DNA of 64,000 bases from Vairimorpha necatrix. Its lineage: Eukaryota. The position numbers were made by a program, and so were the translations under genes. The stretch lies in the NCBI GenBank assembly GCA_036630325.1, contig CP142726.1:620001-684000 (forward strand). The letters run 5' to 3'. The notes beneath the pieces were generated by a model. The model saw only the letters and a program-made list of their open reading frames with translations. It was not told where the DNA came from and ran no database searches. Position 1 is the first letter of the stretch, and every line of letters starts with the position of its first letter. Of this stretch, positions 1,867-35,500 are shown in pieces.

Positions 1867-1932
1867 TGTTAGACATATCCAAGCTAAGGGTTATTTGTTT
1901 ATAAAATATATTTAGGATAATAATTCACAACA
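1867..1932 (-). repeat. 3' LTR (66 bp)
   Basis: TGTTAGACAT...CACAACA; near-match to 6268-6333 and 23677-23742. Confidence 0.85.
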
Positions 1933-2573
1933 TCGCCGCGACTAGGTATTTGTACCACCTCCCCCCTCTAAAGATAGAACTCTTCCTTTTGATTTTACGT
2001 AGTTGAGTAATATGCCTTTTACTAACTTTACCTTTAAGATTGATCAGATACGTATCGTTATTCAATATACCTACAACTTCTCCCATAGCGGAAAATTTTG
2101 GCTGTACTTTATATTTATGAATATGATCTTCTATCAGAACAAAATCACATAGCTCTAGTTTTAGATAATTGGGGTTCTTAAACATTTTTTTGTACTTTTT
2201 AATTCTATTTTTGAAATATTTATTCTTTAGTAATTCTAAATTTTCTGGGTTTATAGGTTCTTTGGGTGTCGTGTTTCTAGACGAATGGCAGATACTATTA
2301 TAACTATCAAGTACATTGTCAGCTCTTTTCGACAATTTTATTGTTTTTCCTTGTTTGTTTACACCTTCACCCATAGTTCTATTAAATCGTTCAATTCTAC
2401 CATTTGAGCAATGATGATATGGTGAAGTTACATGACGGACAATCCCGATTTCAGTCATCCAATTTTAATATATTCACTGCTGTTTTCAAATGCAACGTCA
2501 GAGACAAATGTCTTCACTTTGAACTTCTTATGTACTATTTCTAAAAACATTAATAAGTTGATACTGGTTTTAT

Positions 2574-3676
2574 GGTGCATCTTTAGTAACGGCCCAGAAT
2601 TTTACAGTTTTAAAAAATAATTTTTACCCCCCTAAATGGAGAATACAAATTTTGAAAACTCTGGCCCGTTACTAAAGAAAAGCACCAAAATGCAGCTTGT
2701 GCTAATACAAAGACTTTTTCATGACTTAGACGCCTGTTTAGAGTCTTTAGTGTATTTAGAAGTTCTAAAAGAAGAAAAACCATGCACCAAGTGTGGCTCT
2801 ATAATGAAGTTAGGGCCTAGGATAGAAGTGGTCGTTACTAGAGGAGCGTATCGTTGCATGAATTACAAATGCAATGTCAGGGAAGCTATTAATAAAGGCT
2901 GCAAACTGCCATTATTTACTTTTTGCGATCTTATCTTTATGATACTGTGTAGGAACTCTTACTTTCAGATAATGGCGAGATTAGGTATTTCTACTGCTAC
3001 AATTTCATCGGCTAAAGCAAGGTTAAGAAGTATTTTTAGGGAAACCATCCGAAATAGAATGGTAATAGGTGGACCGGTTCAAGTTATCCAAGTAGACGAA
3101 TCCGTAATTTGCAGAAGGGGTAAAATACGGTCCCCTACAAGCGCCGATGATTACATAAGGGACACCGTTTGGATCGTAGGCATAATTGATACACAAAACC
3201 CTTCAAATTTTTACATTACAAGAGTAGAAAATAGAACGGTTGAATGCCTTACAGCCGCTTTAGAGGGAAAAATTGGCGTGGGTTCGGTGCTACACAGTGA
3301 CGGGCATCCGAGTTATCCTCGTGTTGCCGAGAACTTATGTTTGGATCATCATGTCGTTAATCATTCTATAGGATTCTTATCAACTGATGGCATACATACA
3401 AATAACATTGAAAACGTCTGGTCACAATTAAAATCAGAGATGACAAAAGAACATGGAGTAAAACGGTCTGAAATAGATACTTGGCTAGACGAGTTTATGT
3501 TTAGAAAGAAAATGTTGCGAGAAGACGACATAAACGGCTTTTATCATGGATTTCTTGATCTATTATCTAAGTTATTGAATTAAAACTGCCTTTTTATATG
3601 TTTTTTATGTATTTTTTCTAAATTTTTTGTTTATAAGGGGGACCCTTACCTTCTGGCCCGTTACTAAAGATGCACC
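2574..3676 (+). mobile_element. Merlin DNA transposon, full length, inserted in the Gypsy integrase
   Basis: 26-bp TIRs GGTGCATCTTTAGTAACGG(C/G)CCAGAA (1 mismatch); perfect 8-bp TSD GGTTTTAT. Confidence 0.97.
2636..3583 (+). CDS. Merlin/IS1595-family DDE transposase, intact, 315 aa
   Basis: N-terminal CxxC...CxxxxC zinc ribbon, HTH-like segment, QVDES / LHSDG / HTNNIENVW catalytic motifs; CCC tract before ATG. Confidence 0.95.
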   Translation: MENTNFENSGPLLKKSTKMQLVLIQRLFHDLDACLESLVYLEVLKEEKPCTKCGSIMKLGPRIEVVVTRGAYRCMNYKCNVREAINKGCKLPLFTFCDLIFMILCRNSYFQIMARLGISTATISSAKARLRSIFRETIRNRMVIGGPVQVIQVDESVICRRGKIRSPTSADDYIRDTVWIVGIIDTQNPSNFYITRVENRTVECLTAALEGKIGVGSVLHSDGHPSYPRVAENLCLDHHVVNHSIGFLSTDGIHTNNIENVWSQLKSEMTKEHGVKRSEIDTWLDEFMFRKKMLREDDINGFYHGFLDLLSKLLN

Positions 3677-6256
3677 GGTTTTATTCATAAATACTTTGGC
3701 TATTGCATATCTTAAAAAATAATCTATTGCTGTTAAAATATATAACCCTTCTATTGGTCTTATAATGTCAAAGGCTACATTTTGCCCCGGTTCGAAAGCT
3801 TCAATGTGTCTATAACCCGTTATTCGTACCGGATCGTATTCTTTACACTTAAAACACTCTTTATCAATTCCTTTTACTTCTGTTAATTTAATGTTTTTCT
3901 CAGGTTCATTTTCACATAAATATTCGTAAGTTGCTTTAGCTCCTCTAGGTTATAGCTTTTCATGAGTTTTTACTATACTCTCTTTATTGTCAGTTACGCT
4001 GATATTGTTTATTTCTTTATGTTGGCGAGATAAAGCATCGACATGTGCCAATTCCGTAGGTTTTTTGTATTTATTTTCACAGTCATACATCTGAATATTT
4101 TCTATTTATCTAAAAATTCGTGATGACTTAATTTCCCCTTTTAGGTTGAGGGCTTCTAACGCTCTGTGGTCTAAAAAAAATCTTTAACCAAGTAACCAAT
4201 ATTTAAAATGCTTATTGCCCATAATGAAGCCAACATTTCTTTCTCCGTGATCGTATAATTTAACTCTGAGTCTCTCAGTTGCCTGGATGCAAATGCTATG
4301 GGTCGTTCTAATCCATCACAAATTTGACTGAGTATTGCACCAAGTCCCGTGTTGGACGCATCAGTCGTTAAAATAAATTTAGAAGATAGTTCGGTTTGAT
4401 ATAAGCATAATCTAGTTAATATTTTCTTAAGCGTATTAAATGCCCGTTCTTGGCTTTCTCCCCATTCAAACTGTTGATTTTTCTTTAACAAAAGCACTAA
4501 CGGGTTACAGATATCATCACGATTCTTTTTAAATTTTCTATAATATTTAATGACTCCTAAAAATTTTCTTCCGTCGTTTGCGCTCTTGGGTGTTTTGTAT
4601 TTATTAATTCCTTCTGTTTTATCTATTATTGGTCTAATTTTATTTTGTGAAATTTTATGACCTAAAAACTCAACTTCTTCTTTTAAAATTGTGATTTTCT
4701 TTCTATTTGCAGATAATCCTGCTCTATTAAGCAGACGGCATTTTTTAGCCAAAGATTTATAATGCTCTTCAATAGTTTTGGAGTAAATCAAAACATCATC
4801 AACATATGCAAAACATATTCTCCCAATTTCCTCATTCAAGACTTTATCAATTACTCTTTGAAACATTGCCGGAGAGTTTTTAAATCCCATTGGCATACGG
4901 ACATATTCATATGTTATATTTTTTATTCGAAAAGCCGTTTTTTATCTGTCCGCTTCACGTAGTTTGGCACGAAAAATGCTTCTTTAAGATCTATTTTCGA
5001 AAAGTATTTGCTTTTACCTAAGCAATAAATTAATTCCTCCATCCTAGGTAGGGTATAACTATCTAGCTCAACAATATTGTTGAGTTTAATTAAATTTATG
5101 GTCAATTTTACGCTACCATCTTTCTTTTCAACAGGCCTCACATTATTTAACCATGTTAATTTCAACTCTCAAATGTAATTATTATGTAATAATCTTTTTA
5201 TTTCCACTCTACTTTCTTCTCCCAAGCCTGTGAAATTCTATTGGATCTTTCGACAACCTTTTTTTCCTTTTCTGTGTCAATTCTACGTTCAAAACCTTTA
5301 ATTCCTTCTGGTTTCCATGTGCATAGCTTGTCAATTTCGTCTTTATAATTACAAATCTTTGATTCTTCAATTTTCTGACCCCCATGGGACATCCAATGCC
5401 TTCCTATAATAACTGTTTAATCTGAGCTTTTTGGTAATATATAAAATTTTTCTCTGTAAAATTTTCCTTTGGAGTTGAAATCTAACCATACATATTCTTT
5501 TATTTCAAATTCTTCTAATAAACAGGTATACAGACCGATTGGTTCCTTTAGTTTATTATCCTCTCTTTTACTTTATTTAAAATTTTAAGTGCAATGAAAC
5601 CTACCTCCGAACTAGTATCAAATATGGTTCTAAATTTATAACTTTTTATTTAAATATAATTGTCTTTTATTATATCATCAATCTTTTCAATATTATTAAT
5701 GTCTTTTTTCCTTTTATCTTCTCTTACAAATGTTTTTTGGCTCTTTCTATGCGTAGCATCTTTTATTATTTCTTCTAACTTGTTAACTATTTCTGAAAAT
5801 TCATCATTTATAACCGAAAACTGTACAGTGGCTTTCCTAATTTCTACCCGCATCTTCTTTAATCCAAGAAAACCGACTAATAAAATTACTTCCTCATCTT
5901 CATTTATGCTGTCTCCAAATTGCTTCATTCTTTTAAAATAATCATAACATGTTTCATTCTTCTTCTGGAATTCTCTAAAAAATCTCTTTTAGAAATTTTA
6001 TTGCAAAGCTGGCAATCATAAATTCTTTCCAATCTTTATAAACATATTTTTTTAAATTTCTTGCCTTTTCAAATTTCTCATGGGCATCAAAAATTTAATT
6101 GCTTGCCCTTTCAAGTAAGTAATCAATCTTGTACTCATCGGACAAGGACTTAAAGTTTTTATTCCTTACTATTCTTTTCAAATTAGCTATTATATCTTTA
6201 CCCGATATTTGTAGGGTGAGATTAGCCAACAACTCCATAATGTCTGTTTTTTTCAT

Positions 6257-7810: not shown

Positions 7811-7879
7811 TTTTTTTAATTTCAATGGCCTTTTTTTTTAATTTCAATGGCCTTTTTTTTGAAAAAAAAAACCCCCCTA

Positions 7880-8883
7880 ATGCCCAGAAAAGCGAGATCT
7901 TCGGTCACTCCTGATGTCTTAAAGCTCATTGAAAGACATATAAAAAACGAAAACTTGACCCTAAAAGATATTGCTACGACATTAGATTTAAGTTATAAAA
8001 GAATTTGGAGGATCTATAGGAAAATGTTAGAGGAAGAATCCATTGTTTCTACAAATACAACAAATCGTTCTAAAGTTTCAGCTCATAGAGTTTTAAAGCC
8101 TATCGACATTGTGCTTAAAAACGTCATTGCACGTAGTAATGACAAGACTCTAAGTGAAATCAAAGAAGAACTTTATACAATAGCAAATGTTTCAATGTCT
8201 TTGTCAACTATTTCGAGAAAGTTGAAATATCTAAATATTACAAGAAAAAGACTGTCTCTAATTCCTGCAGAGCGTAATTCGCAGGACAAAATTGATAAAA
8301 GAGCAGAATATGCTATGGAAATATCAGGATATTCACTAGAAAATTTGATTTTTTTGGATGAAACTGGATTTAATGCTCATACCACAAGGCATTATGGGTT
8401 TTCATATAAAAATAAAAAAGCATTTAAAACAGTCCCTGCAAATCGAGGCAAAAATTTAAGTTGTCTTTGCGTAATTTCAAAATCGAATATTATAGCATAC
8501 GAAATGAAAAGGGGCGCATATAATTCTGCTCTATTTGTCGAATTTATTGAAAGACATCTTGTAGAATTTTTCCAAAGAAATCCTCAAAAGATTTTAATCA
8601 TGGATAATGCTAAATTTCATCATTCAAGAGAAGTTTTAGGAAAGCTAAGAGAATTAGGCATATCTTATGTTTAGTTGCCTCCGTATTTCCCACAGCTTAA
8701 TCCAATTGAAGAGTTTTTTCTATGATAAAATCAAGGTTTTGTGCTATAAGGAACTCAAATAATTCTGTTGAAACGGATTTGGAACAAGTGCTGAACGATG
8801 ATTTCAGCCTTTCGTGTAATGGATTCTACACTAATATGTTAAGATGGTTAGAAATGGCAAGGCAGAAAAACGAGTTTATCTAA
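7880..8883 (+). pseudogene. Tc1/IS630-like DDE transposase with premature stop and frameshift
   Basis: HTH N-terminus, FLDETG, IMDNAKFH, TAG at 8672-8674, then LPPYFPQLNPIEE. Confidence 0.9.
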
Positions 8884-10543: not shown

Positions 10544-11773
10544 AATTAATATTTTTTATACACCATAGACATACAAATAATAACTTCCTAAAAATAAAAC
10601 CGATTTCAAAAATTTGAAGCATCCAGAACGGACAGAAAAATCTCAAAAAAAAATAAATTTTTAATTTTATAACCAAAAACAAAAAAAGCCTTTACCTTTT
10701 CAAAAGTTCCATTAGTTACTTACTTATCAAATCTTCTCATTATTATGCATTCAAATGTATAATAAAAAAGCTCGTATTTTAGATTAAATAATGAAAATTC
10801 ACAATGTTATAAATATTAATATTTACAAAAAATCTATAAAATATATACTTATATAGATAAATTAAATTTATCTTGCAAATGTTTTATTTTACAGTTCACA
10901 AAATGATGTCATTACATGGATATAAATGTTTCAAAAAACATAAATATAAAAATGATCTCATATTTTATCTATAAAAACAATAGAGTTACAAAAAATACAA
11001 AACAATTGCACGTCATAGAAAAGATAAATCGTGAATCTTAAAAACAAATATAATATTAAATTAATGAAAATGCTCTAAACACAATAAAATTTATCACTAT
11101 GACACGGTAAGATATTTTTTTTATTACATATTTAGAGTCTGTTTAAGCACAAGTTTTTTAAACGATTAAACTAAATTTGCTTTTATGTTTTATATACAAT
11201 TCGATCAAATTTGGAAAAAATGTAACTATTTTTTTGTACCATATTAATATTTATTGTTATACATTATTTAATTAGAAGTTGACCCTCAACACTTCCTCTA
11301 TATGTATTGTCTCAATTAATAGCTTTATTTTTAATATTCTTTAAGTTTATTGTTCTTTCAAAATGTATTTTTTATTTTCATCCCTTGCTATATGGATTTT
11401 TTCCACGCTTTAACATCATTTTACCTACACTTGTGATCCATTCTTTATTAAATCTCAACTCTCTACCTAAGTCTTTTCTTTTTGTAAATCCAACCTTCGA
11501 TTCTCTCCTTTTGGTTTATACCTTTGCTTAAACTTTCTAGCATACTCGCTACATTCATCACTATATAGAAATACCTCATTTTCTTTATCTTTCTATGCTT
11601 CTAGTGGTGTACGTTTTGGTGCCGTATATCGAGGTTGTGTGTTTTTATGGCCTATCCTACGTTTTCTTTGCGTTTCTTTTATTTTATTAAATCATTGCTC
11701 CCTAGCGTCCCAATACATAGTTACATCCTTCTATTGCTCCTAAAATCTTTTACAGTAACTTTGGTTAACTAAT

Positions 11774-14140
11774 TGTTACCGGCTGTGTTGCACACACCAA
11801 TAATCAGACTAAAACTGAAAGATGAAACAAATCATAATGATCTGAAACATGATTGTTTCAGATCCGAAACTAAAACTATTTAAGAAATCTTAAATAGAAT
11901 AAACATGCCAAATAAATATAGTTCTTCTTCTAATAAAAAGCCTTCTTCAATAACCAGCTCTCCTTCTGGTAACACTGGCTACAACTATTCGAAATCCAAC
12001 GAATTGGGCCACCTACTAGAAAAATTAGGGATATCTACTAACACAATGGTGAAATTCAACGGTACCCAAGGCGAGAACGCATGGGTCTGGATTAATCAAT
12101 TTAAATACCTCGAGGGAGAATGGAATGATATAAAACTGCTCAACTACATTAAGAGATACTTAGGGGAATCAGCTCTCCTATGGTATGAGGCTGTAATTGA
12201 AGACGAGGTGGAAGGATATATGGAATTCAAACAGAAATTTCTAACAAAATATGGGAAAGAAGAATTCCGGGAGGGAATTAATCCCATTAAAATGCTTTAT
12301 AAGAGACTATACTCTGGACCTGTAAATATGAAAATTGAAAACTTTATATACGAACTAATGAAGCTTAACAAGAAAGCAGGAGTTAGCGTGTCTGAAATTA
12401 CGGAGGAGTTGGCTAGATATTTCCCACCGTCACTTAAAGAAAAGGTGGAAGAGGCAACGTCATGGGACGTTGTACTAAAGATTTATGAGAGAAATCACAA
12501 ATTTATTGAGAGTTCAAGGCAGAGACCTGAACAGAGTAGGCCAAGAGAAGCGAGGACTTTGAGGTCAGATACTACAAGGACTAAAGAGAGTCCAAAAAAG
12601 CTAGTATGCTATAAGTGCGGAGGTGAGCACTTGCTTAAGGACTGCAATAAACACGAGGAAATAGAGGTGTTTTTAATCGAGGCAGATCCGGTGTCAAGAG
12701 ACACGAACGATACTACAGTCGAAGGAACCGTTAATGGCGATGTAGTAAGAATGCGCCTGGGATCAGGTGAATCCAACTCATTTGTTGATAAAACCTTAGT
12801 TAATAGAAAGAAACTAAGAAGGGCTAAAGGAGGCCATTGCATTCGAAACTATCCACAGAGTATAGACAAAAGAGTGTCAAAGCAAGAAGATATGCGGATT
12901 AAAAAAAGAGCAAGTATAGAAACAGCTCAGACCCCACTTCAGTATCGAAATCTGAGATTAACCGAGATGAGTGCATCGACCAGCAGGCATATTGTTTGCT
13001 TACAAAAGAACATACTTGGACACGATGGAAACCACCCAAACATTGCGCAAGTAAATAAAAGCGCGGGAAGAGACGACTATACGAGCACCAAGGACTCATT
13101 AAAATCGATCGTAACGAAAAGAGACGATGGTGTGCGCCTATGCAATGAAGATACAAAAGCAAAAGAAACCATGATTGAAGAAGTATGTCAACCTCAGTTG
13201 TTTGAAGAATCTTTTACATATTTGAGTACAGTGAAATTGAACCGCCAGCTCGACCCGGAAAGGCGATACTACCAAACACCCGCTGTAATCGCAACGGAAG
13301 GGGTCGACTGTATGCAACTATGCATAGATTTTAAAGAGTTTAATGGAACAAAGTACAACAAGGCCAAATCTGGATTAATTGCGCGTTGGGCTTATCTAAG
13401 TAGCACGAAAATAAACCAACAGCTCGACCTGGAAAACAGATACTATCAGATACCCACGAGAAAGGAATTAAGTGGGTATGAAGGAAATAAAGAAATCCCT
13501 ATACGACCATTTAAAAGCGTGGCGAGCGAGGAAGATACGGTCGCTCGAAGCGCTCACGCATCAATCGTGCCAAAAAATGATGTTGTTTTTAGGCCGAAAT
13601 TTACAGGAAAATTACTGTGGAATATCATCCCCTATGGATTAGATAACTCGAGAAAAAGGTTAAAAAGAATAACGTACAATATCCTCAAGAAGCCACGTAA
13701 AAAGTTCCTAATGTCTTACCATACATTATATAGAAATGAAAGATTGGATAAAATTTATATAGGACCCTACATAGTCACAAAAAACAAACTAAAAGGAGCC
13801 TATGAAGTAAGGAGTCTTGAAGATGGAATAGAACACTCTATAAACCGAAATGATTTTGTAGTATATAAGAAAGACGACGATATATTGGAGAATATAACAT
13901 CTTCCCTGGAAGTGAAGCCTTGTTCTAAGGAGGGGAGAGTGTTACCGGCTGTGTTGCACACACCAATAATCAGACTAAAACTGAAAGATGAAACAAATCA
14001 TAATGATCTGAAACATGATTGTTTCAGATCCGAAACTAAAACTATTTAAGAAATCTTAAATAGAATAAACATGCCAAATAAATATAGTTCTTCTTCTAAT
14101 AAAAAGCCTTCTTCAATAACCAGCTCTCCTTCTGGTAACA
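11774..14140 (+). mobile_element. Young non-autonomous Gypsy-derived LTR element (2367 bp)
   Basis: Apparently identical 201-bp LTRs 11774-11974 and 13940-14140; TSD CTAAT; PBS-like TGGCTACAAC; PPT AAGGAGGGGAGAG. Confidence 0.97.
11905..14049 (+). CDS. Gag fused to vestigial pol segments, 714 aa
   Basis: Gag (FNG..W), CCHC knuckle CYKCGGEHLLKDC, protease-like MRLGSGESNSFV lacking the Asp, RT fragments (LCIDFKEFN, QLDLENRYYQIP, IPYGLDNS), GPY/F module LDKIYIGPY; no YxDD and no integrase DDE core. Confidence 0.85.
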   Translation: MPNKYSSSSNKKPSSITSSPSGNTGYNYSKSNELGHLLEKLGISTNTMVKFNGTQGENAWVWINQFKYLEGEWNDIKLLNYIKRYLGESALLWYEAVIEDEVEGYMEFKQKFLTKYGKEEFREGINPIKMLYKRLYSGPVNMKIENFIYELMKLNKKAGVSVSEITEELARYFPPSLKEKVEEATSWDVVLKIYERNHKFIESSRQRPEQSRPREARTLRSDTTRTKESPKKLVCYKCGGEHLLKDCNKHEEIEVFLIEADPVSRDTNDTTVEGTVNGDVVRMRLGSGESNSFVDKTLVNRKKLRRAKGGHCIRNYPQSIDKRVSKQEDMRIKKRASIETAQTPLQYRNLRLTEMSASTSRHIVCLQKNILGHDGNHPNIAQVNKSAGRDDYTSTKDSLKSIVTKRDDGVRLCNEDTKAKETMIEEVCQPQLFEESFTYLSTVKLNRQLDPERRYYQTPAVIATEGVDCMQLCIDFKEFNGTKYNKAKSGLIARWAYLSSTKINQQLDLENRYYQIPTRKELSGYEGNKEIPIRPFKSVASEEDTVARSAHASIVPKNDVVFRPKFTGKLLWNIIPYGLDNSRKRLKRITYNILKKPRKKFLMSYHTLYRNERLDKIYIGPYIVTKNKLKGAYEVRSLEDGIEHSINRNDFVVYKKDDDILENITSSLEVKPCSKEGRVLPAVLHTPIIRLKLKDETNHNDLKHDCFRSETKTI

Positions 14141-14215
14141 CTAATATTCTTTATCTACAACAAATAGCAAATTTATTACTAATTTTTTGTCAACATTATC
14201 TTTCTTATATTTTTT

Positions 14216-15406
14216 GGATCAAGTCCATTATATGCCCAGGATTAGAAATTTTGGGTATATAATGGACTTAACTCAAAACTCTGGTCATATAATGGACTTA
14301 AGTTTTTTATCAATTTTTTGAATTTTCAAAAGCAAGTTGCTAATACTTTAATGAGTCGAAGAGAACTTTCTGACTTCGAAAACTAATATGATATTCTAAC
14401 AAATGAGTGTAGAGAAGCACATACAATACCTTAGGGGGGAAATGCTTCTCAATGAAATGTCTTGTTGCGGTTGTGGATTGAAAATGGTTGAAAGACCAAA
14501 AGAAATTGTAGATGGTCGCTGTTGGATATGCGAAAATAAGTTGTTTCCGAAGTATAGCATCACTTTAAGCATTAGACATGGTTCCTTTTTTAAGGATTTT
14601 AGAATGCCAATAATCGATGTTTTTACTGTCATTTATCTTTGGGCAGCAGACAAACAGTTTATGGATATAGCTAATGACTTTTGCATTCAAAAAATATTGA
14701 TCAAAAAGATATTTTGAAAATTAAGAACTCTTGTGGGCAAATATTTTGTTGAGAACCATATTAGACTAGGTGGTCCAGGCAAAATATGCCAAATTAATGA
14801 AAGCCTGTTTGTACACAAAACAAAATATAATCGCGGTTGGTGGCTAAGTGGGCAGGTATGGGTATTCGGAATCGTTGATACAAGTATCAGCCCTGAAAGA
14901 TTCAGTTAAATTTTTTTTTCTAATAGAACAAGAAATACTTTATATCCAATAATCACCGATGTATGCATGCCCGGCACAACTATTTATTCCGACAGATGGG
15001 CTGCTTATGTGGAAATTCAAAATATATTTGGGTTTAATCATGAGATGGTCAACCATAAATTTTATTTTGTGCATCCTAAGATTGGAGTTAACACACAGAC
15101 AGTCGAGTCATTATGGAACAGAATAAAAGGAAAAATTAAGGCAATGTGTGGGATAAAGAAAAGCCAATTACCGGGATTTTTGGAAGAGGTCATGTTTAAG
15201 AATGAGTTCGTAGAAAGTTTGTTGGGAAGTCTAGCAGTTTTGTTGGCAGCAAAACATGATTAAAATTATTCATTATATTTTTCGTTTTGGATATTTGTCT
15301 TTAAAATTATCGATTTATAAAGATTTGGGCATATAATGGACTTAACTACAAACTCTGGGCACATAATAGACTTAAGTTTTTTCTGGGCATATAATGCACT
15401 TGATCC
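14216..15406 (+). mobile_element. Merlin transposon with subterminal TIR-derived repeats; transposase disrupted
   Basis: TIRs GGATCAAGT(C/G)CATTATATGCCCAG; TSD TATTTTTT; GGPGKICQINES, IYSDRW, VNH, NTQTVESLW. Confidence 0.95.
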
Positions 15407-18113: not shown

Positions 18114-19393
18114 GGAGGAAGGATCCGAAACACCCCCCCCCCTCAGAGGGTGTTCACTTTATTTTTTCGAACCCCAAAATTGAAGTGCAAAAAAAGAAGG
18201 AGCAAGAAGGAGACAAAAATTTCTAACCACTTTAAATATTAAAAATATAAAATAAATAAATATTTAAATACAGAATTTAATTTTAAATTGATTTATTTAA
18301 TCAAAAGTGATTTTCATTAATTTTTCGAACGTATTTTTTGGATTATTTCTTTTAAAAACAAATAAGTTTAACCAAGGTGTAATATGTTTTTTGGACCTAT
18401 ATCTAAACGGAATTCCTAATTTTACGCCTGCACATGTACCTTCGATGTGGTTTGTGTGTACACCTGTCGTCAAGTTTACAAAACCAATGGAGTGGTTAAC
18501 AGTAAAATGTCTGTATATGCCAAATTTGAAAAGGTTTACGTAGCCTTTCCAAAAATCCGTATATATGATACTTCCTGCTTTAACATATTTGAGAATTACA
18601 CTTTCTAGTGTAATTGCCTTCCTATTTTCTACTTCTACTAACACTATTTTCCTTTGTGTGGTCCTTTCAACCATCCCAAGAACCCATACTCCATCGACTT
18701 TATGTCCTCTATGATTTTTTCGCTTACCGAACTTAGATTCGTCTATTTCAACTATGATGTCTGGACCACCAATCATTTCATTGCTTTTTAGGTCTTTTGC
18801 AATGTTTTTTATTGTTCTATATACCGCCTTTTACTTATTGATAATATTTTAATTATTGTTTTAGCGTGAGTATTGTTTATAAACAGAAATATTGCTTGGC
18901 TTATTTGTAACCAACTTAATTTTGTTCGGAAAAAAGGTTTTTTATACACTAAAGTCATTTCAAACCTACATCTTTTTTTACTACATCTTATAAGATTTTG
19001 TGTTTCCTTTGTCTTTTTCATATTACTAAGACATTTTGGACAAAATCTCCCTAATATGCATAAATCAATGCATTTAAGCATGATTTCTTCTACGTCTTTA
19101 TATTTTTCTTCTGGCATTTCTTAAAAGTAGGGGCAAATAACCAAAATATAAAGTAAAATATAGAAAATTTAATATGCCCAAAAAAACAAGTTCTAATAAA
19201 GACGGGAAGTATTTTCTGGTTTAAAATTAAATTCTGTATTTAAATATATATTTATTTTATATTTTTAATATTTAAAGTGGTTAGAAAATTTTGTCTCTTT
19301 CTTGCTCCTCCTTTTTTTGCACTTCAATTTTGGGGTTCGAAAAAATAAAGTGAACACCCTCTGAGGGGGGGGGGTGTTTGGGCATCTTCAGCC
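18114..19393 (-). mobile_element. Merlin transposon with ~170-bp TIRs; transposase frameshifted
   Basis: Long inverted repeats 18114-~18287 and ~19220-19393; TSD AAAAAAAT; ORFs 18809-19117 and 18297-18776 (EIDESKFGKRK, YTD, HTNHIEG). Confidence 0.95.
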
Positions 19394-19445: not shown

Positions 19446-19728
19446 GTAAACGTTGCATCAAGAAGTAAATATATTGTACAACTTTGTGACTATCAATAGT
19501 CATGAAAAAAAAATTCGTTTCAAGAAGTGCTGTGGTATTTTATTCGTATTCTAGATATCATGACTTATAACTCTAGATTGATTATAGGACTGAAATAGAC
19601 TAATAATAAATTGGTAATAATCTGATACATCTCGTTTCGGATCTTTTCCTAATTGTATCTAAGAATTCTTTAATATAAAAACAGGAATTTTTAATACTAA
19701 AGAAGTGAATGGCAACACATTTCTGATT

Positions 19729-19801
19729 GGTGCCCTTAGCACAGTGGTAGAAGGCAATGCTTCCATTGAGCAATGGCTGGGTTCGATTCCCAGGGACACC
19801 A
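19729..19801 (+). tRNA. tRNA-like sequence (pseudo-tRNA or SINE head); isotype ambiguous (Gly-TCC or CAT register)
   Basis: A box TAGCACAGTGG, B box GGTTCGATTCC, T-stem CTGGG/CCCAG, acceptor GGTGCCC/GGACACC with one mismatch; D and anticodon arms imperfect. Confidence 0.6.
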
Positions 19802-19995
19802 AAATTGTTTCTACTTTCTATGATGCTGTTGGAACAACTCAGATGATGAAAATGTCCACGATAATCATTAAGTTGATTCAATGAAACTTGTGTGTGTTCA
19901 GCCACAAGGGGATTAGCATCTAGTGTGAAAACGCACCTCAAAGCCAAAAAGCAGTATCACCCTTTGGTGACTTAATGATACATAAAAGTATCTAA

Positions 19996-29752: not shown

Positions 29753-32566
29753 TGTCATGTCCTCAAAACCATGACATCTGTGTTTTACTGTGTTAAAACT
29801 TTAATCAGTAAAACACTGCCCCGAACGAATAGTCTAAGGCAGTGATCTCTAACGATCGGACATGAAACGTTATGTTTCATAAATAAATATAAATAGTCCA
29901 AAAAAGTTAGAAGACACCGAGCATGAAGAGTAACTTTAATAACAAATCAAATAAAAAGAAATATAATACAAATATTTTAGAAATGTATTTAAAAAACGGA
30001 GATATTACTCCGGTTCATGTCATTTTGAATTCAAAGACATTAAATGAACAAAACGAAAAACGAAATAACGAAGATGACTATATACAAGTCAAAATCAAAG
30101 TTCCAGACTCGGACCTGGAATTTACGAAGAAATTAAAAATAATAAAAAACATCGAAAAATTCGATTTCATTCCTTGGTTTAAGGAATTTGAAGAAATAGC
30201 CACACAGAACAAATGGAATGCTGAACAAGGCATCATGATACTACGAAATTTAATTACTGATCGACGCCTAGAAGCGGATATTTTCATTACAGATGCAGCA
30301 ACAACCAAAAGAAACTTAATTAAACATATTTTTGAGCAAGATGCTAAAGAAATGTTGCAAGAAGCCTTTAAGGTAAAACAAATAGATTTTCTTTTTATAG
30401 AAAACTATTATGAAAAGATTTACAACAAGATAAGTATCTATAGCGCTTATTACGAAATAAGCAAATCGGAATTTAACAGACATTTAAGCGAATGCTTTTA
30501 TCAAGGGTTAGGAAGAAACTCTACGTTTGAAATAATAAAACATAACTTAGGCGAGAACGTCTTAAATGCTTATAATCACCTAAAAAATATTGAGAAAATG
30601 ATTCGAAAGAAAGCAGAAACTAAGAAAATAAACAAGGTGTCTAATGACGAGCCAGTATATCAAGAAAGAGAAGGATCATACAGTAAAAAGTTTTCAAACA
30701 AGACGAATAACCCAAGATCTTCGTATATAAATAAATGGTGTTCTATGCACAAAAACACTAGCCACGACACCAAAGACTGTTATTACAATAAAGACCGACA
30801 AAATGAAAATAAGAAGAAAGAAACGAGAGAAAATCTTAAGATAATCAAAGAACCAATAAAAGTAATAAATGGAATTGAATTAGAAGGTTCAATTGAAAAG
30901 AAAGAAACCAGATTTTTAATCGATACAGGTGCCACAAGAAATTTTATTAGTAATAAAAAGATCAAAGAATTGAAATTATCACCCATTGAAGATGTGGAAA
31001 TCCAAACAAAATTTGCCAATGAGCAAAAAGAAATAACTAACAAAACAGTACTTGTTAGAATAACATTAAAGAATCTAATGAAAGAAAAATACGTAAGATT
31101 TTATATATTAAAAAACAACAGCGATGATGTAATATTAGGAAATGAATTCCTAGTCGCAAATGAAGCAGTAGTAAATTACAAAGAAGGAACAATTTATGTA
31201 GGAAGGGAGAGTTTGAAATTTCTACATAACGACGAATGTTGCGAATTAGACGCAATGTTATTTGAGAAAATGAATGTGTGCAAACAGGTAGATGAATGTG
31301 CATTAAAAACAGAAAATAAAAAGAACTTTAAAAAAGATGAAAAAGAAAGATTTTATATTGACAGAAAAATGACTAAAGAATTTATTAAATTTGTCCACGA
31401 ATTGTCGGGACATTGCGGGCAAGTAATCATGTATTTAAACTTAAAAAGATGGTACAACATCATAAACATTAGAACAGTGATCCGCAAGATATGCAATCAG
31501 TGTATCGTATGTAAAGAAAACAAGGATTTTAAACAACAGAATCTAGAAAGAAATAAAATAGATAGCAGTGCACCATTTGAAATAATAAGCACAGATATTT
31601 TTGGTCCTTTTCTCCTGGAGGAGTTTGAGGGCGACTCTCTAAACCATAAGGGTTATATCTTGACCATAACCGATGTGTTTTCGAGATTCACGAGAATTTG
31701 GTTTGGTGAGAAGTTTAGGAGTGAGGAAGTTATTATGTGTTTAAACGAATGGAGTGATGATTTTGCGAAGCCTAAAGCGCTAATTTCGGACAATGGTCCG
31801 CAATATAAAAGTAAAAAAATGAAAGATTATACTAATAAAATACAAATCGAACATCGGCTAATACCGATATATTACCCTCAAAGCAATGGAATTTCAGAAC
31901 GTATAAATCAAACAATTGCAGAAGTGCTGAGAATGAATATAGGAAAGAATATAAAACACATTATTATGCAAATTGAACATCGGATAAATAATAATGTTAA
32001 TACCACACTGGGAATTGCGCCTATAGAAGCAATTTATAAGAATAGTTTTTATGACATTGAGAAAAGGGTTAATGTGCCATTTTTGCGAAACATACCTGCA
32101 GTTGAAGTGAACTATAAGCGATGTATCGCAGTAAATGACATTGTATACTTAAAAAATCATAGCAATAATAAACTCGAGCGGAAATACTATGGGCCGTTTA
32201 AAGTTATGGAAATCGGTAAGAAAGGAAGTTGGGTTCGACTTAAAGACATGCCCAACTGGGTTCATATTAAACAGTTGAAGCTGTAGGGGGGCAGACTGTC
32301 ATGTCCTCAAAACCATGACATCTGTGTTTTACTGTGTTAAAACTTTAATCAGTAAAACACTGCCCCGAACGAATAGTCTAAGGCGGTGATCTCTAACGAT
32401 CGGACATGAAACGTTATGTTTCATAAATAAATATAAATAGTCCAAAAAAGTTAGAAGACACCGAGCATGAAGAGTAACTTTAATAACAAATTAAATAAAA
32501 AGAAATATAATACAAATATTTTAGAAATGTATTTAAAAAACGGAGATATTACTCCGGTTCATGTCA
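29753..32566 (+). mobile_element. Young RT-less LTR element (2814 bp)
   Basis: 270-bp LTRs 29753-30022 and 32297-32566 (2 differences seen); TSD TAAAC; PPT-like AGGGGGGCAGAC; no TGG-type PBS. Confidence 0.97.
29923..32286 (+). CDS. Gag-protease-integrase polyprotein lacking RT and RNase H, 787 aa
   Basis: Knuckle CSMHKNTSHDTKDC; FLIDTGA and ILGNEFL protease; HHCC (HELSGH..CIVC); STDIFG / SDNG / SERIN DDE; YYGPF GPY/F; no RT motifs. Confidence 0.93.
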   Translation: MKSNFNNKSNKKKYNTNILEMYLKNGDITPVHVILNSKTLNEQNEKRNNEDDYIQVKIKVPDSDLEFTKKLKIIKNIEKFDFIPWFKEFEEIATQNKWNAEQGIMILRNLITDRRLEADIFITDAATTKRNLIKHIFEQDAKEMLQEAFKVKQIDFLFIENYYEKIYNKISIYSAYYEISKSEFNRHLSECFYQGLGRNSTFEIIKHNLGENVLNAYNHLKNIEKMIRKKAETKKINKVSNDEPVYQEREGSYSKKFSNKTNNPRSSYINKWCSMHKNTSHDTKDCYYNKDRQNENKKKETRENLKIIKEPIKVINGIELEGSIEKKETRFLIDTGATRNFISNKKIKELKLSPIEDVEIQTKFANEQKEITNKTVLVRITLKNLMKEKYVRFYILKNNSDDVILGNEFLVANEAVVNYKEGTIYVGRESLKFLHNDECCELDAMLFEKMNVCKQVDECALKTENKKNFKKDEKERFYIDRKMTKEFIKFVHELSGHCGQVIMYLNLKRWYNIINIRTVIRKICNQCIVCKENKDFKQQNLERNKIDSSAPFEIISTDIFGPFLLEEFEGDSLNHKGYILTITDVFSRFTRIWFGEKFRSEEVIMCLNEWSDDFAKPKALISDNGPQYKSKKMKDYTNKIQIEHRLIPIYYPQSNGISERINQTIAEVLRMNIGKNIKHIIMQIEHRINNNVNTTLGIAPIEAIYKNSFYDIEKRVNVPFLRNIPAVEVNYKRCIAVNDIVYLKNHSNNKLERKYYGPFKVMEIGKKGSWVRLKDMPNWVHIKQLKL

Positions 32567-35500
32567 TAAACAAACTCAAAGAACCTTACTTATATATTTT
32601 TTTTGTTCACTTTTTTCACAATCTACGTAATTTATTTTCATTAAGACATTTTCCTCCGTTTTCTCCAACTCTGTATTCGTGATGTTTCTACTAAGACAAA
32701 CTACATGAACCATCTCATTTCCTTTCCTATATTTAATATTAAGGTTAAACATACACAATCTACCTTGCCATCGCTGAATTTAAGACATTCTATATCTCCA
32801 TTATTAATAACATCTAAAGCTTTATGATCTGTAATAACATCTACAGGTGTCCCCAAAACAAAATATTAAAAATGTTCTAGTCCTAATAAGGTAGCTGGAA
32901 ATTCTTTTTTCTAGAATACTATACTTTCTCGTGTTCTTTTAATCTTCTCAAAACAAATGCTATTGATATCTTTCCATTTCATTCGTTTGAGTAATAATTA
33001 CTCCTATACCATGATTAAAAGCATCTGTTTATAATTGGAGAGGCTTATTAAAATCCGGCCGTTTCAAAACAATTTTCTTCTTAAGTTCTCCCTTTAATGC
33101 TTCAAATGCATTCATCGCTGTCTCATGCCATATATATTTTTTCTTTTTCTGCAATAAACCACACGAGGGTGTTTCAAAAATTGCACATCCTTTAAAAAAT
33201 TTTTTATAATAATTTATAAACCCATAAATTCTTGTAGTCGTTTTCGGTCTTGGGGCATCTTTGTATCATCAATGCCCTGTGTAACTGAGTTCTTTGAATA
33301 TACCTTATTATGAGTGATTATATGGCCTAAAAATTCTACTTTTTCTTGCTTATAAATTGTTTTTTCGGTATAAATCTCCAAATGATTCCTGTCTAAAATG
33401 TTAACAATATTTCTAAAGACGGCCTCATATTCTTCTTCACTTTTACTAAAAATTAATATGTCATCTACGTAAACAAAACACGATTTACCTATTTCTTCAG
33501 CCAAAACTCCATCCATATGCCTTTGAAAAATTACTGGGGCATTTCTAAAGCCCATAGGCATTACATTCCACTCGTACAATCTATGTCGTACTTGAAAAGC
33601 TGTTTTATGTCGGTCTTCTTTGGCCAACGGGATTTGAAAGAAACCATCCTTTAAATCAATCTTACTGAAATATTTCATATCTAAAAATATACTAAGATAG
33701 TATTTATATTAGGTAAGACGTATAGATCTTGTTCTACTAATTTGTTTACTGCTACAAGGTTGGTTGTGACTCGGATGCTTCCATTCGGTTTAACTACAGG
33801 CTTATATTATTTAGCCACATGGACTTAGATTCTGAAATGTAGCCTTTCTGCAGCAACTCAGTTACTGCCTCATCAATTCCTGATCCAATTTTCTTGGGCA
33901 TATCATAAACTTTTTAAACAACATTATTGCCCTCTTTTTTCGTATTTCTGCTTATTTGACACTCTCCACTTTTTCCATTAAATTTTTTATGGTTCTCTTT
34001 CTACAAATTCTTCTCTGCTCCGACTTTTGGTAAAATATAGAATTTCTGTCTTAATCTTTTTCTTTTGTATACAGTTTTCAAAAAAAAAATGTTCTATTAT
34101 ACAAAGGGGCTCATCTTAACAAGTATAAACATTCATTTTTTGATGGTTACTCTTTGTTTTAACTTTTAGTAATCTCCTAACAGCATCTGATGTGAAATTA
34201 TGATAAACAAGGTGTTTAGTGTACCTTAAATAATAATACATTGATATGAATTGAATTATTTTAATTAATTAAGTCTTGAACTTTTTCCGGCGTCTCCTAC
34301 TATTTCATTAATTCATTTGTATGACATGTTATTAATTCGCGGGCTCTACGGATTTTAGATGAATTTCTGATCTTCCACAGTTGTAACAAGAAAACTGTTT
34401 CGGTCCCTATATCTTTGACCTTTGAAGCTGTGACAATATACCTTTTTTTCAGTAATATTTCTTTTTTAGATTTAAGGTACTTTTTTTCTTGTTCCTTCTT
34501 TTCCTTTTTCTTCTTTTTTTCTGCCTGATAAATCTCTTCTAACAAAAATATCATTAATTAAAACCTCATCTAACACTTTACTCCTAATTATTAATCTTTG
34601 TACATCTAAAATTTCCCCTTTCGGTCCATCTAAAATTATTTTTATCTTTTCTTCGCTTTTTAATTTGTAAGGCTTTGCTAATTCCTCCGCAAATTTAATG
34701 TATTCACAAATTGTTTGATTATGTTCATGCTTTAAACATAACAAGCCGCCCATCTCTAACTTATTTGAGCTGCAAACCCTCTCTAACTCCTGTTTAAAGC
34801 GAATCTAGTTCATGCAGTTTTTCTTGACGTTGAACTAAAAACCATTCATGATTTCATGGCATGCTCTGCTAATAATAATTTTTTTCCTATTCGCTCATGC
34901 CTTTAAGAAAGAAAAAAATTCCAGTCTCTTTAGCTCTAGAGCGGCATTTTCCACCGTTATTTCCCTTGTCATAGTCGCAAACTAAATATTCTCGACCATT
35001 TTTTTTAAGAACTTTATTCGTAGTAAAAAATTATGGGTAATTATATAAATTTTTTAATAATTCAACCAATAAGAAAGCATCTACTGAAGCAAAGACGGTT
35101 TATCAGAGAATAGAAAGGAAACTTGAGAAAAGGTGCTTTTCTTCACTATCCACAGTCAAGAAGGTCACCACAGAGAATTGCAATGTTGTATAAGCAATTG
35201 GAAGGGAAGGGATGGAGAAAGGAAAATTGGCTAATGCGTTGGAATAAAAATACAACACGAGAGAAAAATGGACGAAGAGTATGTAAACTTTAAAATCTAT
35301 ACATATAATTCTCTTATATTTAATAGAACTCTTTTCTTTATATACTCTAATCTTTCAAAGTGAGCTCTCCATCTGACACTCTTTAGACACAGGAGCCGAT
35401 ATCTCACTTTTATACATTGACCAGATATCAATTTAAAATAAAATAATTTTTACAAGTGCGAAAATCAGATCGGCCGCTGGCACTTTCATTAATATAATAG

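What the first reader, a model, noticed from the sequence alone, without database searches (positions are those of the whole stretch)
11774..14140. LTR element whose single open ORF is Gag plus scrambled, duplicated, catalytically dead pol fragments
Seen: identical 201-bp LTRs, TSD CTAAT, and a 714-aa ORF running from inside the 5' LTR into the 3' LTR. After Gag come a protease motif lacking its Asp, two versions of the RT RLC motif (RDDGVRLC, MQLCIDFKEFN), two copies of the LD..YYQ.P motif (13212-13281, 13388-13455), an RH-end ARW, IPYGLDNS and the integrase GPY/F tail. No catalytic core survives, yet there are no stops. Inference: the frame is under selection, for example to deliver the GPY/F module on Gag, to act as a scaffold or decoy recruiting helper Pol, or to avoid NMD.
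Basis: partly seen in the sequence, partly recalled or inferred. Interest (0 to 1): 0.75.

Follow-up and report, generated by a model that had tools for sequence, protein, structure and literature searches.

The report
Defective gypsy retrotransposon with open Gag-relic ORF
This is a recently inserted, non-autonomous Ty3/gypsy retrotransposon of a Vairimorpha-type microsporidian whose single reading frame joins an intact capsid protein to a decayed but still open, correctly ordered remnant of pol that ends in a well-kept integrase tail module; it is an interesting but not unprecedented kind of parasitic element.

Summary
The sequence facts hold. There are two identical 201-bp LTRs (11774-11974, 13940-14140), a CTAAT target duplication, and one 714-codon ORF (11905-14049) that starts in the 5' LTR and ends in the 3' LTR. 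The ORF is not scrambled. It is colinear with Gag, protease, reverse transcriptase and the integrase C-terminus of microsporidian Ty3/gypsy elements. It carries one tandem duplication of the RT fingers, several in-frame indels, and a large deletion running from just before the RT YxDD motif to about 15 residues before the integrase GPY/F motif. The protease Asp is Gly, and YxDD, RNase H and the integrase core are absent. Neutral decay of that size would almost never leave the frame open, so selection on frame continuity is likely. It is not proven: no whole genome was available and data on other copies are thin. The closest analogues are the IAP 1Δ1 Gag-Pol fusion and Gag-encoding non-autonomous plant elements. 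I rate it a new member of a known kind, of moderate interest.

The parts
11769..11773 (+). Target-site duplication CTAAT (left copy)
   Evidence: Read directly; identical to 14141-14145.
11774..11974 (+). 5' LTR, 201 bp. It has TG..CA ends and the terminal inverted repeat TGTTACC/GGTAACA. It holds a TATA-like TATTTAAG (11876-11883), an AATAAA (11896-11901) and the Gag ATG at 11905.
   Evidence: 100% identical to 13940-14140; sequence. The promoter and poly(A) roles are inferred and not tested.
11839..11864 (+). Perfect 11-bp-stem palindrome GATCTGAAACA-TGAT-TGTTTCAGATC in the LTR (second copy at 14005-14030)
   Evidence: 2 matches in the window and 0 in shuffles. A loose end in run X2 at this place shows a variant that is also palindromic. 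Function unknown.
11905..14049 (+). Single ORF of 714 codons (P0001): Gag, then protease relic, RT relic with a duplicated segment, integrase C-terminal GPY/F module, and 36 residues encoded by the 3' LTR
12052..12519 (+). Gag capsid (CA) domain, aa about 50-205
   Evidence: AF2 pLDDT is over 90 across most of it. Foldseek matches PNMA2 (E 2e-4), Arc/dArc and Ty3 capsids. It is 41% identical to V. necatrix P0047 Gag and keeps 23 of 26 consensus columns.
12607..12645 (+). Nucleocapsid zinc knuckle CYKCGGEHLLKDC (CX2CX3HX4C, one residue shorter than the canonical CX2CX4HX4C; the canonical spacing is recalled)
   Evidence: Sequence; aligned to the knuckles of relatives; pLDDT about 87.
12707..13038 (+). 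Protease relic. The active-site triad reads GSG (G286, 12760-12762) instead of D(S/T)G, and a possible ILGxD flap motif reads NILGHDG.
   Evidence: Only the first about 40 residues align significantly (P0047, P0016, P0003). aa 300-380 has no significant match of its own, and AF2 pLDDT there is about 30.
13042..13272 (+). RT fingers/motif A, copy 1 (aa 380-456: ..KRDDGVRLC..EVCQPQLFEESFTYLS..QLDPERRYYQ)
   Evidence: 34% identical over 86 aa to P0042 (E 1e-11) and 46% over 52 aa to P0012. It keeps 8 of 21 invariant columns.
13270..13455 (+). RT fingers/motif A, copy 2 (aa 456-517: ..MQLCIDFKEFN..ARWAYLS..QLDLENRYYQIP)
   Evidence: The direct DNA repeat 13219-13281 / 13393-13455 is 73% identical.
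13456..13722 (+). RT palm relic with about 26-aa and about 10-aa insertions and motif B (IIPYGLDNS, 13624-13650). It ends at FLMSY, exactly where YxDD should follow.
   Evidence: hhalign and the MAFFT alignment. P0009 587-700 aligns to 13279-13719 (E 4.7e-4). Copy 2 plus motif B keeps 17 of 39 invariant columns.
13741..13884 (+). Integrase C-terminal GPY/F module (RLDKIYIGPYIV...INRNDFVVYK), aa 613-660
   Evidence: 52.6% identical to V. necatrix integrase P0020 over 57 aa (E 5e-16). It keeps 6 of 7 invariant and 18 of 22 consensus columns. AF2 predicts three strands with pLDDT 83-85.
13927..13939 (+). Polypurine tract AAGGAGGGGAGAG abutting the 3' LTR; it is part of the coding frame (..KEGR)
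   Evidence: Sequence. Its role is inferred from its position.
13940..14140 (+). 3' LTR. Its first 110 nt encode the last 36 residues of the ORF (VLPAVLHTPIIRLK...) and the stop.
   Evidence: Relatives end the same way (..GRVLP..PIIRLK in P0006..IIRLK in P0051..GGMLP..PIVRLK in P0009).
14141..14145 (+). Target-site duplication CTAAT (right copy)

Best explanation
The element is a non-autonomous, internally deleted Ty3/gypsy LTR retrotransposon of a Vairimorpha/Nosema-type microsporidian. It inserted very recently and must have been copied by the enzymes of an autonomous relative. Its one ORF makes a Gag-deltaPol fusion in three parts: an intact capsid with nucleocapsid knuckle; about 330 residues of colinear, decayed protease and RT sequence that now serves only as an open, probably disordered spacer; and a conserved integrase C-terminal GPY/F module followed by a short LTR-encoded tail. 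Shown: the anatomy, the loss of all catalytic cores, the recent insertion, the existence of several copies elsewhere, and the contrast between the conserved ends and the decayed middle. Inferred: lineages of this element that acquired a stop or frameshift in the spacer left fewer descendants. I think the likeliest reason is that the fusion protein has to carry the GPY/F module. The protein would co-assemble with helper Gag/Gag-Pol around its own RNA and couple to the helper integrase through that module, much as the IAP 1delta1 Gag-Pol fusion promotes retrotransposition of its own RNA in cis. My confidence by layer: about 0.9 that it is a non-autonomous deletion derivative mobilised in trans, about 0.6 that frame continuity is selected, and about 0.3 that the GPY/F module is the reason. 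The figure given for this explanation is that of the second layer.
For: Anatomy and recent insertion rest. Colinearity with Gag-PR-RT-IN C-terminus rests on (probability 99.7, E 3.6e-26; P0047 colinear, E 5.8e-62).

All catalytic cores are gone. Pfam finds 0 families at E<=10. The protease Asp is Gly. The RT sequence stops just before YxDD. RNase H and the integrase core are absent.

The ends are conserved and the middle is decayed. Gag keeps 23 of 26 consensus columns and has pLDDT over 90. GPY/F keeps 6 of 7 invariant and 18 of 22 consensus columns and has pLDDT 83-85. The RT relic keeps 25 of 60 invariant columns, against 20 of 24 to 38 of 41 in controls, and aa 286-618 has pLDDT about 30-45.

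The frame is open beyond neutral expectation. The tail has 0 stops against 17-40 in the other frames. In simulation the open fraction is 0.015 at 10% divergence and 0.001 at 20%. All 32 plus-strand relic hits with E<1 are in the ORF frame.

The family has other copies. Runs X1 and X2 hold many contigs of it with several different flanks beyond 14140. One X2 contig of 589 nt, with 27 differences in 211 nt and 55 in 243 nt, is colinear with 12506-13094 at exactly equal length.

Analogue: the IAP 1delta1 Gag-Pol fusion 'facilitates retrotransposition in cis' but needs Gag and Pol in trans (PMC7411935, passages read). GPY/F multimerisation in Tf1 integrase is known to me only from a title seen in a reference list (Ebina et al. 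2008, via PMC6839031).
Against: No genome was available, so ORF retention and dN/dS across copies were not measured.

The close-copy differences that were listed give 4 synonymous to 4 non-synonymous codon changes (9 of the 13 differences in two X2 contigs were visible). This is not significantly different from neutrality (P 0.07-0.15).

In run X1, five joints, each in one contig of depth about 5-8 with short sides of 21-80 nt, skip 68, 251, 446, 112 and 71 nt. None of these is a multiple of 3. They could be frameshifted or deleted copies, although the tool marks what lies between as 'not known'.

In X2 the LTR and Gag bins have depths of 1,496-25,857 against 45-120 for most tail bins (one bin at 497). 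Contigs leave the element at 12656 into a sequence that looks like a purine tract plus an LTR start. If that reading is right, a far more abundant relative does without the tail (my inference from 23 nt).

The relatives used for the conservation counts were selected by similarity to P0001, which biases those counts upward for P0001. Database proteins are open frames by construction, so similar fusion ORFs elsewhere (P0047, P0010) are not independent proof of selection.
Confidence: 0.6

Rival explanations
1. The frame is kept open for the sake of the RNA, not the protein. A stop far upstream of the 3' LTR would leave a long untranslated stretch and expose the genomic RNA to surveillance (NMD-like decay) or other ribosome-dependent loss, or would uncouple translation from cis-packaging. 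On this view the tail sequence is irrelevant so long as ribosomes run to the LTR.
For: It would explain free amino-acid change without stops in aa 290-612. In this clade the ORFs of intact relatives also run into the 3' LTR (P0009, P0006, P0051). V. necatrix P0047 is another open Gag-deltaPol ORF whose GPY motif itself is lost, so a frame can be open without GPY/F.
Against: It does not explain why the GPY/F module is as conserved as in intact integrases. P0047's RT part is barely decayed (20 of 24 invariant columns kept), so its open frame may simply be young. The passages I read on NMD in microsporidia report only loss of the SMG1 complex and do not say whether NMD works there (PMC5709506).
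Confidence: 0.2
2. There is no selection on the tail. The element is a dead deletion derivative whose frame happens still to be open, and the decay of the pol relic reflects a few large rearrangements plus the high error rate of a few replication cycles.
For: The LTRs are identical, so this copy itself has had no time to decay. The listed close-copy changes are 4 synonymous to 4 non-synonymous, not distinguishable from neutral. Possible out-of-frame deletions exist in X1 contigs.
Against: 35 of 60 RT-invariant residues are replaced. With that much change, the chance of no stop in 322 codons is 0.1% or less in simulation, before counting indels. At least five alignment-inferred indels and a 58-codon duplication are all in frame, and no relic homology is found in other frames. 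A diverged copy keeps its exact length over 589 nt.
Confidence: 0.15
3. The fusion protein is a regulator rather than a helper-hijacker. A Gag carrying a dead pol and an integrase oligomerisation module could poison helper particles or integrase complexes. That would be copy-number control, comparable in logic to truncated Gag inhibitors of Ty1 (a comparison I recall, not one I checked here).
For: It rests on the same structural facts as the main reading: intact CA, a conserved GPY/F module and dead enzymes.
Against: The element itself has just transposed and exists at several sites, which fits a parasite of the helper better than an inhibitor. Nothing tested here separates the two readings.
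Confidence: 0.05

Closest known systems
Mouse IAP 1delta1 (I-delta-1) elements
   Same: Both are non-autonomous LTR elements created by an internal deletion that fuses gag to the rest of pol in frame. Both are recently active, and both need Gag and Pol in trans. In IAP 1delta1 the fusion protein promotes retrotransposition in cis (PMC7411935, passages read).
   Different: IAP 1delta1 is a vertebrate endogenous retrovirus with one defined deletion. Here there are several in-frame indels, a tandem duplication within RT, heavy decay of the retained pol sequence, and retention of only the integrase C-terminal module. Cis action has not been tested here.
Gag-encoding non-autonomous plant gypsy elements (RLG_Quinta with Gag + DUF1; RLG_Sabrina, WHAM)
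   Same: These are long-lived non-autonomous lineages that keep an intact Gag ORF plus an extra domain of unknown function. They rely on an autonomous partner that shares LTR termini and PBS (PMC11302176, passages read).
   Different: In Quinta the extra domain has no recognised origin. Here the extra part is demonstrably the colinear relic of PR-RT plus the GPY/F module. The autonomous partner was not identified here.
Autonomous microsporidian Ty3/gypsy elements (e.g. P0008 of 1413 aa, P0009 of 1343 aa; Vairimorpha/Nosema relatives)
   Same: They share the Gag fold and knuckle, a single gag-pol ORF without frameshift, a GPY/F integrase tail, and an ORF that reads across the polypurine tract into the 3' LTR.
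   Different: Those proteins carry Pfam-detectable PR, RVT_1, RNase H and rve domains. P0001 has none.
V. necatrix P0047 (626 aa, annotated 'reverse transcriptase domain-containing protein') and P0010 (891 aa)
   Same: Both are single ORFs running Gag, PR, partial RT, deletion, integrase C-terminus and into the LTR.
   Different: The breakpoints differ: P0047 jumps from LDLEKG to the ERTNQS stretch of integrase. P0047 keeps the protease DSG and 20 of 24 RT invariants but has lost the GPY motif. It belongs to another family, 41% identical in Gag.
LARD / TRIM non-autonomous LTR elements
   Same: They have LTRs, a TSD, no enzymes, and are mobilised in trans.
   Different: As I recall their definition, these elements have no coding capacity. 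This element has a 714-codon ORF with a well-folded Gag, so it is not a LARD or TRIM.

Membership tests
Ty3/gypsy (Metaviridae) LTR retrotransposon | Direct LTRs with TG..CA ends flanked by a short target-site duplication | tested here: met
   201-bp LTRs 100% identical, TG..CA ends, 5-bp TSD CTAAT.
Ty3/gypsy (Metaviridae) LTR retrotransposon | Gag with a retroviral-type two-lobed capsid and a CCHC knuckle | tested here: met
   AF2 pLDDT over 90. Foldseek matches PNMA2, Arc, dArc and Ty3 capsids. The knuckle is CX2CX3HX4C. Pfam Retrotrans_gag was not detected.
Ty3/gypsy (Metaviridae) LTR retrotransposon | Domain order PR-RT-RH-IN (integrase after RT) | tested here: met
   The relics are in the order PR, RT, IN C-terminus. 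RH and the integrase core are deleted, so the order can be judged only from what remains.
Ty3/gypsy (Metaviridae) LTR retrotransposon | GPY/F module at the integrase C-terminus | tested here: met
   RLDKIYIGPYIV... is 52.6% identical to P0020 over 57 aa and keeps 6 of 7 invariant columns.
Ty3/gypsy (Metaviridae) LTR retrotransposon | Polypurine tract before the 3' LTR and a primer-binding site after the 5' LTR | tested here: inconclusive
   A PPT, AAGGAGGGGAGAG, lies at 13927-13939. The sequence after the 5' LTR (C-TGGCTACAAC...) matches the only tRNA in the window (tRNA-Met, 19728-19802) no further than TGG. No PBS was identified.
Autonomous (self-sufficient) retrotransposon | Catalytic protease Asp, RT YxDD, RNase H, integrase HHCC and DDE | tested here: not met
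   DSG/DTG is replaced by GSG. The RT stops before YxDD. There are no RH or integrase core matches.
Non-autonomous deletion derivative mobilised in trans | Recent transposition despite the lack of its own enzymes | tested here: met
   Identical LTRs plus a TSD. Other insertion flanks are seen in runs X2 and X3.
Non-autonomous deletion derivative mobilised in trans | An autonomous partner with matching LTR termini and PBS in the same genome | not testable with these tools
   No whole genome is held. No partner lies in the window. The other gypsy fragments in the window are unrelated at E<=0.01.
IAP 1delta1-like Gag-Pol fusion element | An in-frame deletion giving one Gag-Pol fusion ORF | tested here: met
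   One 714-codon ORF spans Gag and the pol relics.
IAP 1delta1-like Gag-Pol fusion element | The fusion protein enhances retrotransposition of its own RNA in cis | not testable with these tools
   This needs a transposition assay.
LARD/TRIM | No protein-coding capacity in the internal region | tested here: not met
   A 714-codon ORF with a confidently folded Gag.

The most novel reading that the evidence does not exclude
The element is a specialised 'hook' parasite of its autonomous relative. Selection keeps about 330 codons of dead pol open purely as a tether, so that every Gag it makes carries an integrase GPY/F oligomerisation module at its far end. That module would capture the helper's integrase (and so the helper's pre-integration machinery) for particles that hold the parasite's own RNA. 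This would be a defined protein-level mechanism by which a non-autonomous LTR element out-competes its helper, and it would also explain why in-frame Gag-deltaPol derivatives recur in this genome.
Probability: 0.22. Interest if true: 0.6.

Novelty: new member of a known kind. Interest (0 to 1): 0.35.

Why it matters
Non-autonomous LTR retrotransposons often outnumber their helpers, yet little is known about how they compete at the protein level. Here the contrast is unusually clean: an intact Gag, a decayed but open spacer, and a conserved integrase tail module. This makes the question testable: is the open frame needed, and if so, is it needed for the GPY/F module or for the RNA? The source genome (Vairimorpha necatrix or a very close relative) is tetraploid, about 50% repeats, and has RNAi (PMC10759460, passages read). 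TEs were masked before gene calling in that work, so elements like this one are not annotated. The same 64-kb window holds a second, unrelated in-frame derivative (Gag-PR-IN without RT/RH). That suggests such 'semi-autonomous' elements are a regular part of this genome's repeat load. If the selection claim fails, this is an ordinary defective gypsy copy.

Tried and rejected
Whole-genome search for copies: no genome is held for this window. The window itself holds no other copy or solo LTR.

Protein word-index searches found nothing, either near-length or shorter with the tail only. P0001 is not in the 15-billion-protein collection.

DNA-level relatives were not found.

Earlier findings of this scan returned nothing.

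Expression could not be assessed: no RNA holder was listed for the element.

Complex prediction of two copies of aa 596-680 gave no verdict.

The ESM Atlas search on aa 286-618 gave PR+RT clusters at scores of 0.77-0.80, below the level that counts, so this is a lead only.

dN/dS between the two RT-fingers copies could be computed over only 21 alignable codons (dN 0.37, dS 0.84). That is too few to conclude anything, and the rest of the unit does not align at the DNA level.

No PBS was identified. Beyond TGG there is no match to the window's tRNA-Met. Self-priming was considered but not pursued.

The 23-nt sequence into which abundant X2 contigs diverge at 12656 is absent from the window.

Rejected readings: a scrambled pol; a domesticated host gene (identical LTRs, TSD, multiple insertion sites); hidden compensated frameshifts (no relic homology in other frames).

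Literature: a search for microsporidia + LTR retrotransposon + non-autonomous gave 11 papers, none of which, by its listing, describes such elements in microsporidia. PMC4202319 uses neither 'non-autonomous' nor 'truncated'. PMC10759460 does not use 'LTR' or 'retrotransposon' as words. Supplements were not available. Ebina et al. 2008 (PMC2414268) is not held.
Full report
**What is there.** The window is AT-rich (about 30% GC) and full of transposon remains: ISXO2/Merlin-type and DDE_3 transposase fragments and several gypsy pol fragments. The flagged stretch is a complete short LTR element. Two 201-bp LTRs (11774-11974 and 13940-14140) are 100% identical. They begin with TG, end with CA, and carry the 7-nt terminal inverted repeat TGTTACC/GGTAACA. 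They are flanked by the 5-bp duplication CTAAT. A purine tract, AAGGAGGGGAGAG, abuts the 3' LTR. One ORF of 714 codons runs from an ATG at LTR position 132 (11905) to a TAA at positions 108-110 of the 3' LTR (14047-14049). The tail of 459 codons has no stop, while the other five frames have 17-40, and none of 2000 shuffles was stop-free. The window holds no second copy.

**Whose element it is.** An exhaustive HMMER search found 45 relatives. The named ones come from Vairimorpha necatrix and V. ceranae; one is filed under the ant Nylanderia fulva. The window's own aldose reductase gene (52716-53624, minus strand) falls in the same 90% cluster as the V. necatrix aldose reductase, on a contig of the same length. 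The window is therefore V. necatrix or something very close to it. That genome is described as tetraploid, 28.3% GC and about 50% repeats, with Dicer and Argonaute, and with TEs masked before gene prediction (PMC10759460, passages read). The masking explains why this ORF is not among the deposited proteins.

**Architecture: colinear, not scrambled.** Pfam recognises nothing in the protein, even at E<=10, whereas the full-length relatives P0008 and P0009 show Gag, PR, RVT_1, RNase H and rve. A profile of seven relatives nevertheless aligns to P0001 residues 19-600 in one colinear stretch from Gag to RT motif B (probability 99.7, E 3.6e-26). V. necatrix P0047 aligns colinearly over 12166-13968 in a single frame (E 5.8e-62). 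The parts, in order, are:
- Gag capsid, aa about 50-205: AF2 pLDDT over 90; Foldseek matches PNMA2, Arc and Ty3 capsids.
- Zinc knuckle CYKCGGEHLLKDC.
- Protease relic whose active site reads GSG where relatives have DSG or DTG.
- RT fingers up to motif A, present twice (aa 380-456 and 456-517).
- Two small insertions, then RT motif B (IIPYGLDNS for MPFGLxNAP).
- A break right after FLMSY, exactly where YxDD should follow.
- The last part of integrase with the GPY/F module (aa 613-660; 52.6% identical to V. necatrix integrase P0020 over 57 aa).
- The purine tract and 36 LTR-encoded residues.

RNase H, the HHCC finger and the DDE core are absent. The element cannot replicate on its own, yet its identical LTRs and TSD show that it has just moved. 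Public runs X2 and X3 show other flanks beyond its 3' end.

**Family habits.** Starting Gag inside the 5' LTR and ending the polyprotein inside the 3' LTR is not peculiar to this copy. Relatives end in ..GRVLP..PIIRLK (P0006)..IIRLK (P0051) and ..GGMLP..PIVRLK (P0009), which are the same residues that this LTR's first 50 nt encode. The unrelated second element in the window also has its ATG in the LTR.

**Is the open frame selected?** Three segments behave differently.
- Gag keeps 23 of 26 consensus columns (median control 0.74).
- The GPY/F module keeps 6 of 7 invariant and 18 of 22 consensus columns, as good as any relative taken out in turn.
- The RT relic keeps only 8 of 21 (copy 1) and 17 of 39 (copy 2 plus motif B) of the columns invariant in relatives, while leave-one-out controls keep 38/45, 38/41, 38/44, 38/41 and 20/24.

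AF2 gives pLDDT of about 30-45 for residues 286-618. So the middle has changed a great deal since it last worked as an enzyme. For the 322 middle codons, 5.7% of all single changes create a stop. In simulations without indels the frame stays open in 10.9% of runs at 5% divergence, 1.5% at 10%, 0.1% at 20% and never at 38%. All significant relic homology lies in the ORF frame (32 of 32 plus-strand hits with E<1), so there is no sign of frameshifted stretches. The duplication (58 codons) and the alignment-inferred indels are all in frame. This last point comes with a caveat: protein alignments can only show in-frame events. In run X2, one 589-nt contig with 27 differences in 211 nt and 55 in 243 nt is colinear with 12506-13094 at exactly equal length. 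Together these make selection against stops and frameshifts in the ancestry of this copy the likeliest reading.

**What argues against, or is missing.** The decisive census of copies could not be done. The read-laying tables list only part of the differences (40 of 275 substitutions, 12 of 28 indels). In the two close X2 contigs over the tail, 9 of 13 differences are visible, and they make 4 synonymous and 4 non-synonymous codon changes and no stop. That is not significantly different from neutral expectation (P 0.07-0.15). Run X1 shows five single-contig joints that skip 68, 251, 446, 112 and 71 nt, none a multiple of three, with short flanking matches and unknown content between. They may be damaged copies or alignment artefacts. 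In X2 the LTR and Gag bins are at depth 1,496-25,857, while most tail bins are at 45-120 and the unique flanks at 5-8. Contigs leave the element at 12656, right after the knuckle, into AGGGAAAAAAG followed by TGTTA.., which looks like a purine tract and an LTR start (my inference). If so, a much more abundant relative carries Gag only, and the tail is not needed for amplification as such. The kind of run X2 is only guessed to be DNA.

**Mechanism.** Shown: the element encodes a Gag-deltaPol fusion without enzymes and was mobilised recently. Inferred: helper PR, RT, RNase H and IN come from an autonomous relative that has not been identified. The fusion protein co-assembles through its capsid domain and binds its own RNA through the knuckle. 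The spacer must stay open because the C-terminal GPY/F module matters. The title of Ebina et al. 2008, seen only in a reference list, says that this domain of Tf1 integrase multimerises, which suggests coupling to the helper integrase. The known precedent for a fusion that helps its own RNA is IAP 1delta1 (PMC7411935). Long-lived Gag-plus-extra-domain partners are known in wheat (RLG_Quinta; PMC11302176). The main rival is that translation through to the LTR protects or packages the RNA. It explains the open spacer equally well, but it does not explain the conservation of GPY/F. A self-association prediction for the module gave no verdict.

**Verdict.** This is a new member of a known kind, namely non-autonomous LTR elements that keep a Gag-fusion ORF. 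It has one testable twist: a decayed open spacer that tethers a conserved integrase tail module.

Noticed in passing
window 29753-32566 (LTRs 29753-30022 and 32297-32566; ORF 29923-32286): A second, unrelated non-autonomous gypsy element. It has 273-nt repeat matches 99% identical, a TSD TAAAC, and a single 787-codon ORF (P0058) that starts in the 5' LTR and encodes Gag, an intact-looking protease (LIDTGAT) and integrase (H2C2 + rve + GPF). RT and RNase H are deleted in frame, and the stop lies just before the purine tract.
   Followed up: partly
window 11839-11864 and 14005-14030: A perfect palindrome, GATCTGAAACA-TGAT-TGTTTCAGATC, sits in each LTR; in the 3' LTR it lies within the last codons of the ORF. 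A loose end in run X2 shows a relative with GATCTAAAAC..GTTTTAGATC, that is, changes on both arms that keep the pairing.
   Followed up: partly
window 11876-11907 / 14042-14073: The ORF's stop TAA lies inside the TATA-like TATTTAAG of the LTR and is in the same frame as the Gag ATG 24 nt downstream. A single stop codon therefore separates the end of one polyprotein frame from the start of the next within an LTR (1-in-3 chance for the frame).
   Followed up: no
window 12656 (run X2 contigs): Very abundant contigs share the LTR 3' part and Gag up to just after the zinc knuckle. They then diverge into a purine run followed by TGTTA.., possibly a high-copy Gag-only relative with a different U3. 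The 23-mer is not in the window.
   Followed up: partly
window 1925-4896, 7847-8674, 14403-15263, 18297-18776, 33214-33678: Other TE debris: gypsy integrase and RT-RNase H fragments on the minus strand interrupted by an ISXO2/Merlin-like transposase, a DDE_3 (Tc1/mariner-type) transposase, two more ISXO2-like fragments (one right next to the element), and a lone RVT_1 fragment.
   Followed up: no
window 52716-53624 (-), 57524-58339 (-), 19728-19802 (+): Host genes. There is an aldo/keto (aldose) reductase in the same 90% cluster as the V. necatrix protein WUR02135.1, a 271-aa protein with no Pfam family, and a tRNA-Met. GC drops to 22-25% in the last 8 kb of the window.
   Followed up: no
protein P0010: An 891-aa in-frame Gag-PR-partial RT-partial IN ORF of this microsporidian gypsy clade is deposited as a protein of the ant Nylanderia fulva on a 22.8-kb contig. 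This could be contamination by a microsporidian or a transfer; I did not examine it.
   Followed up: no
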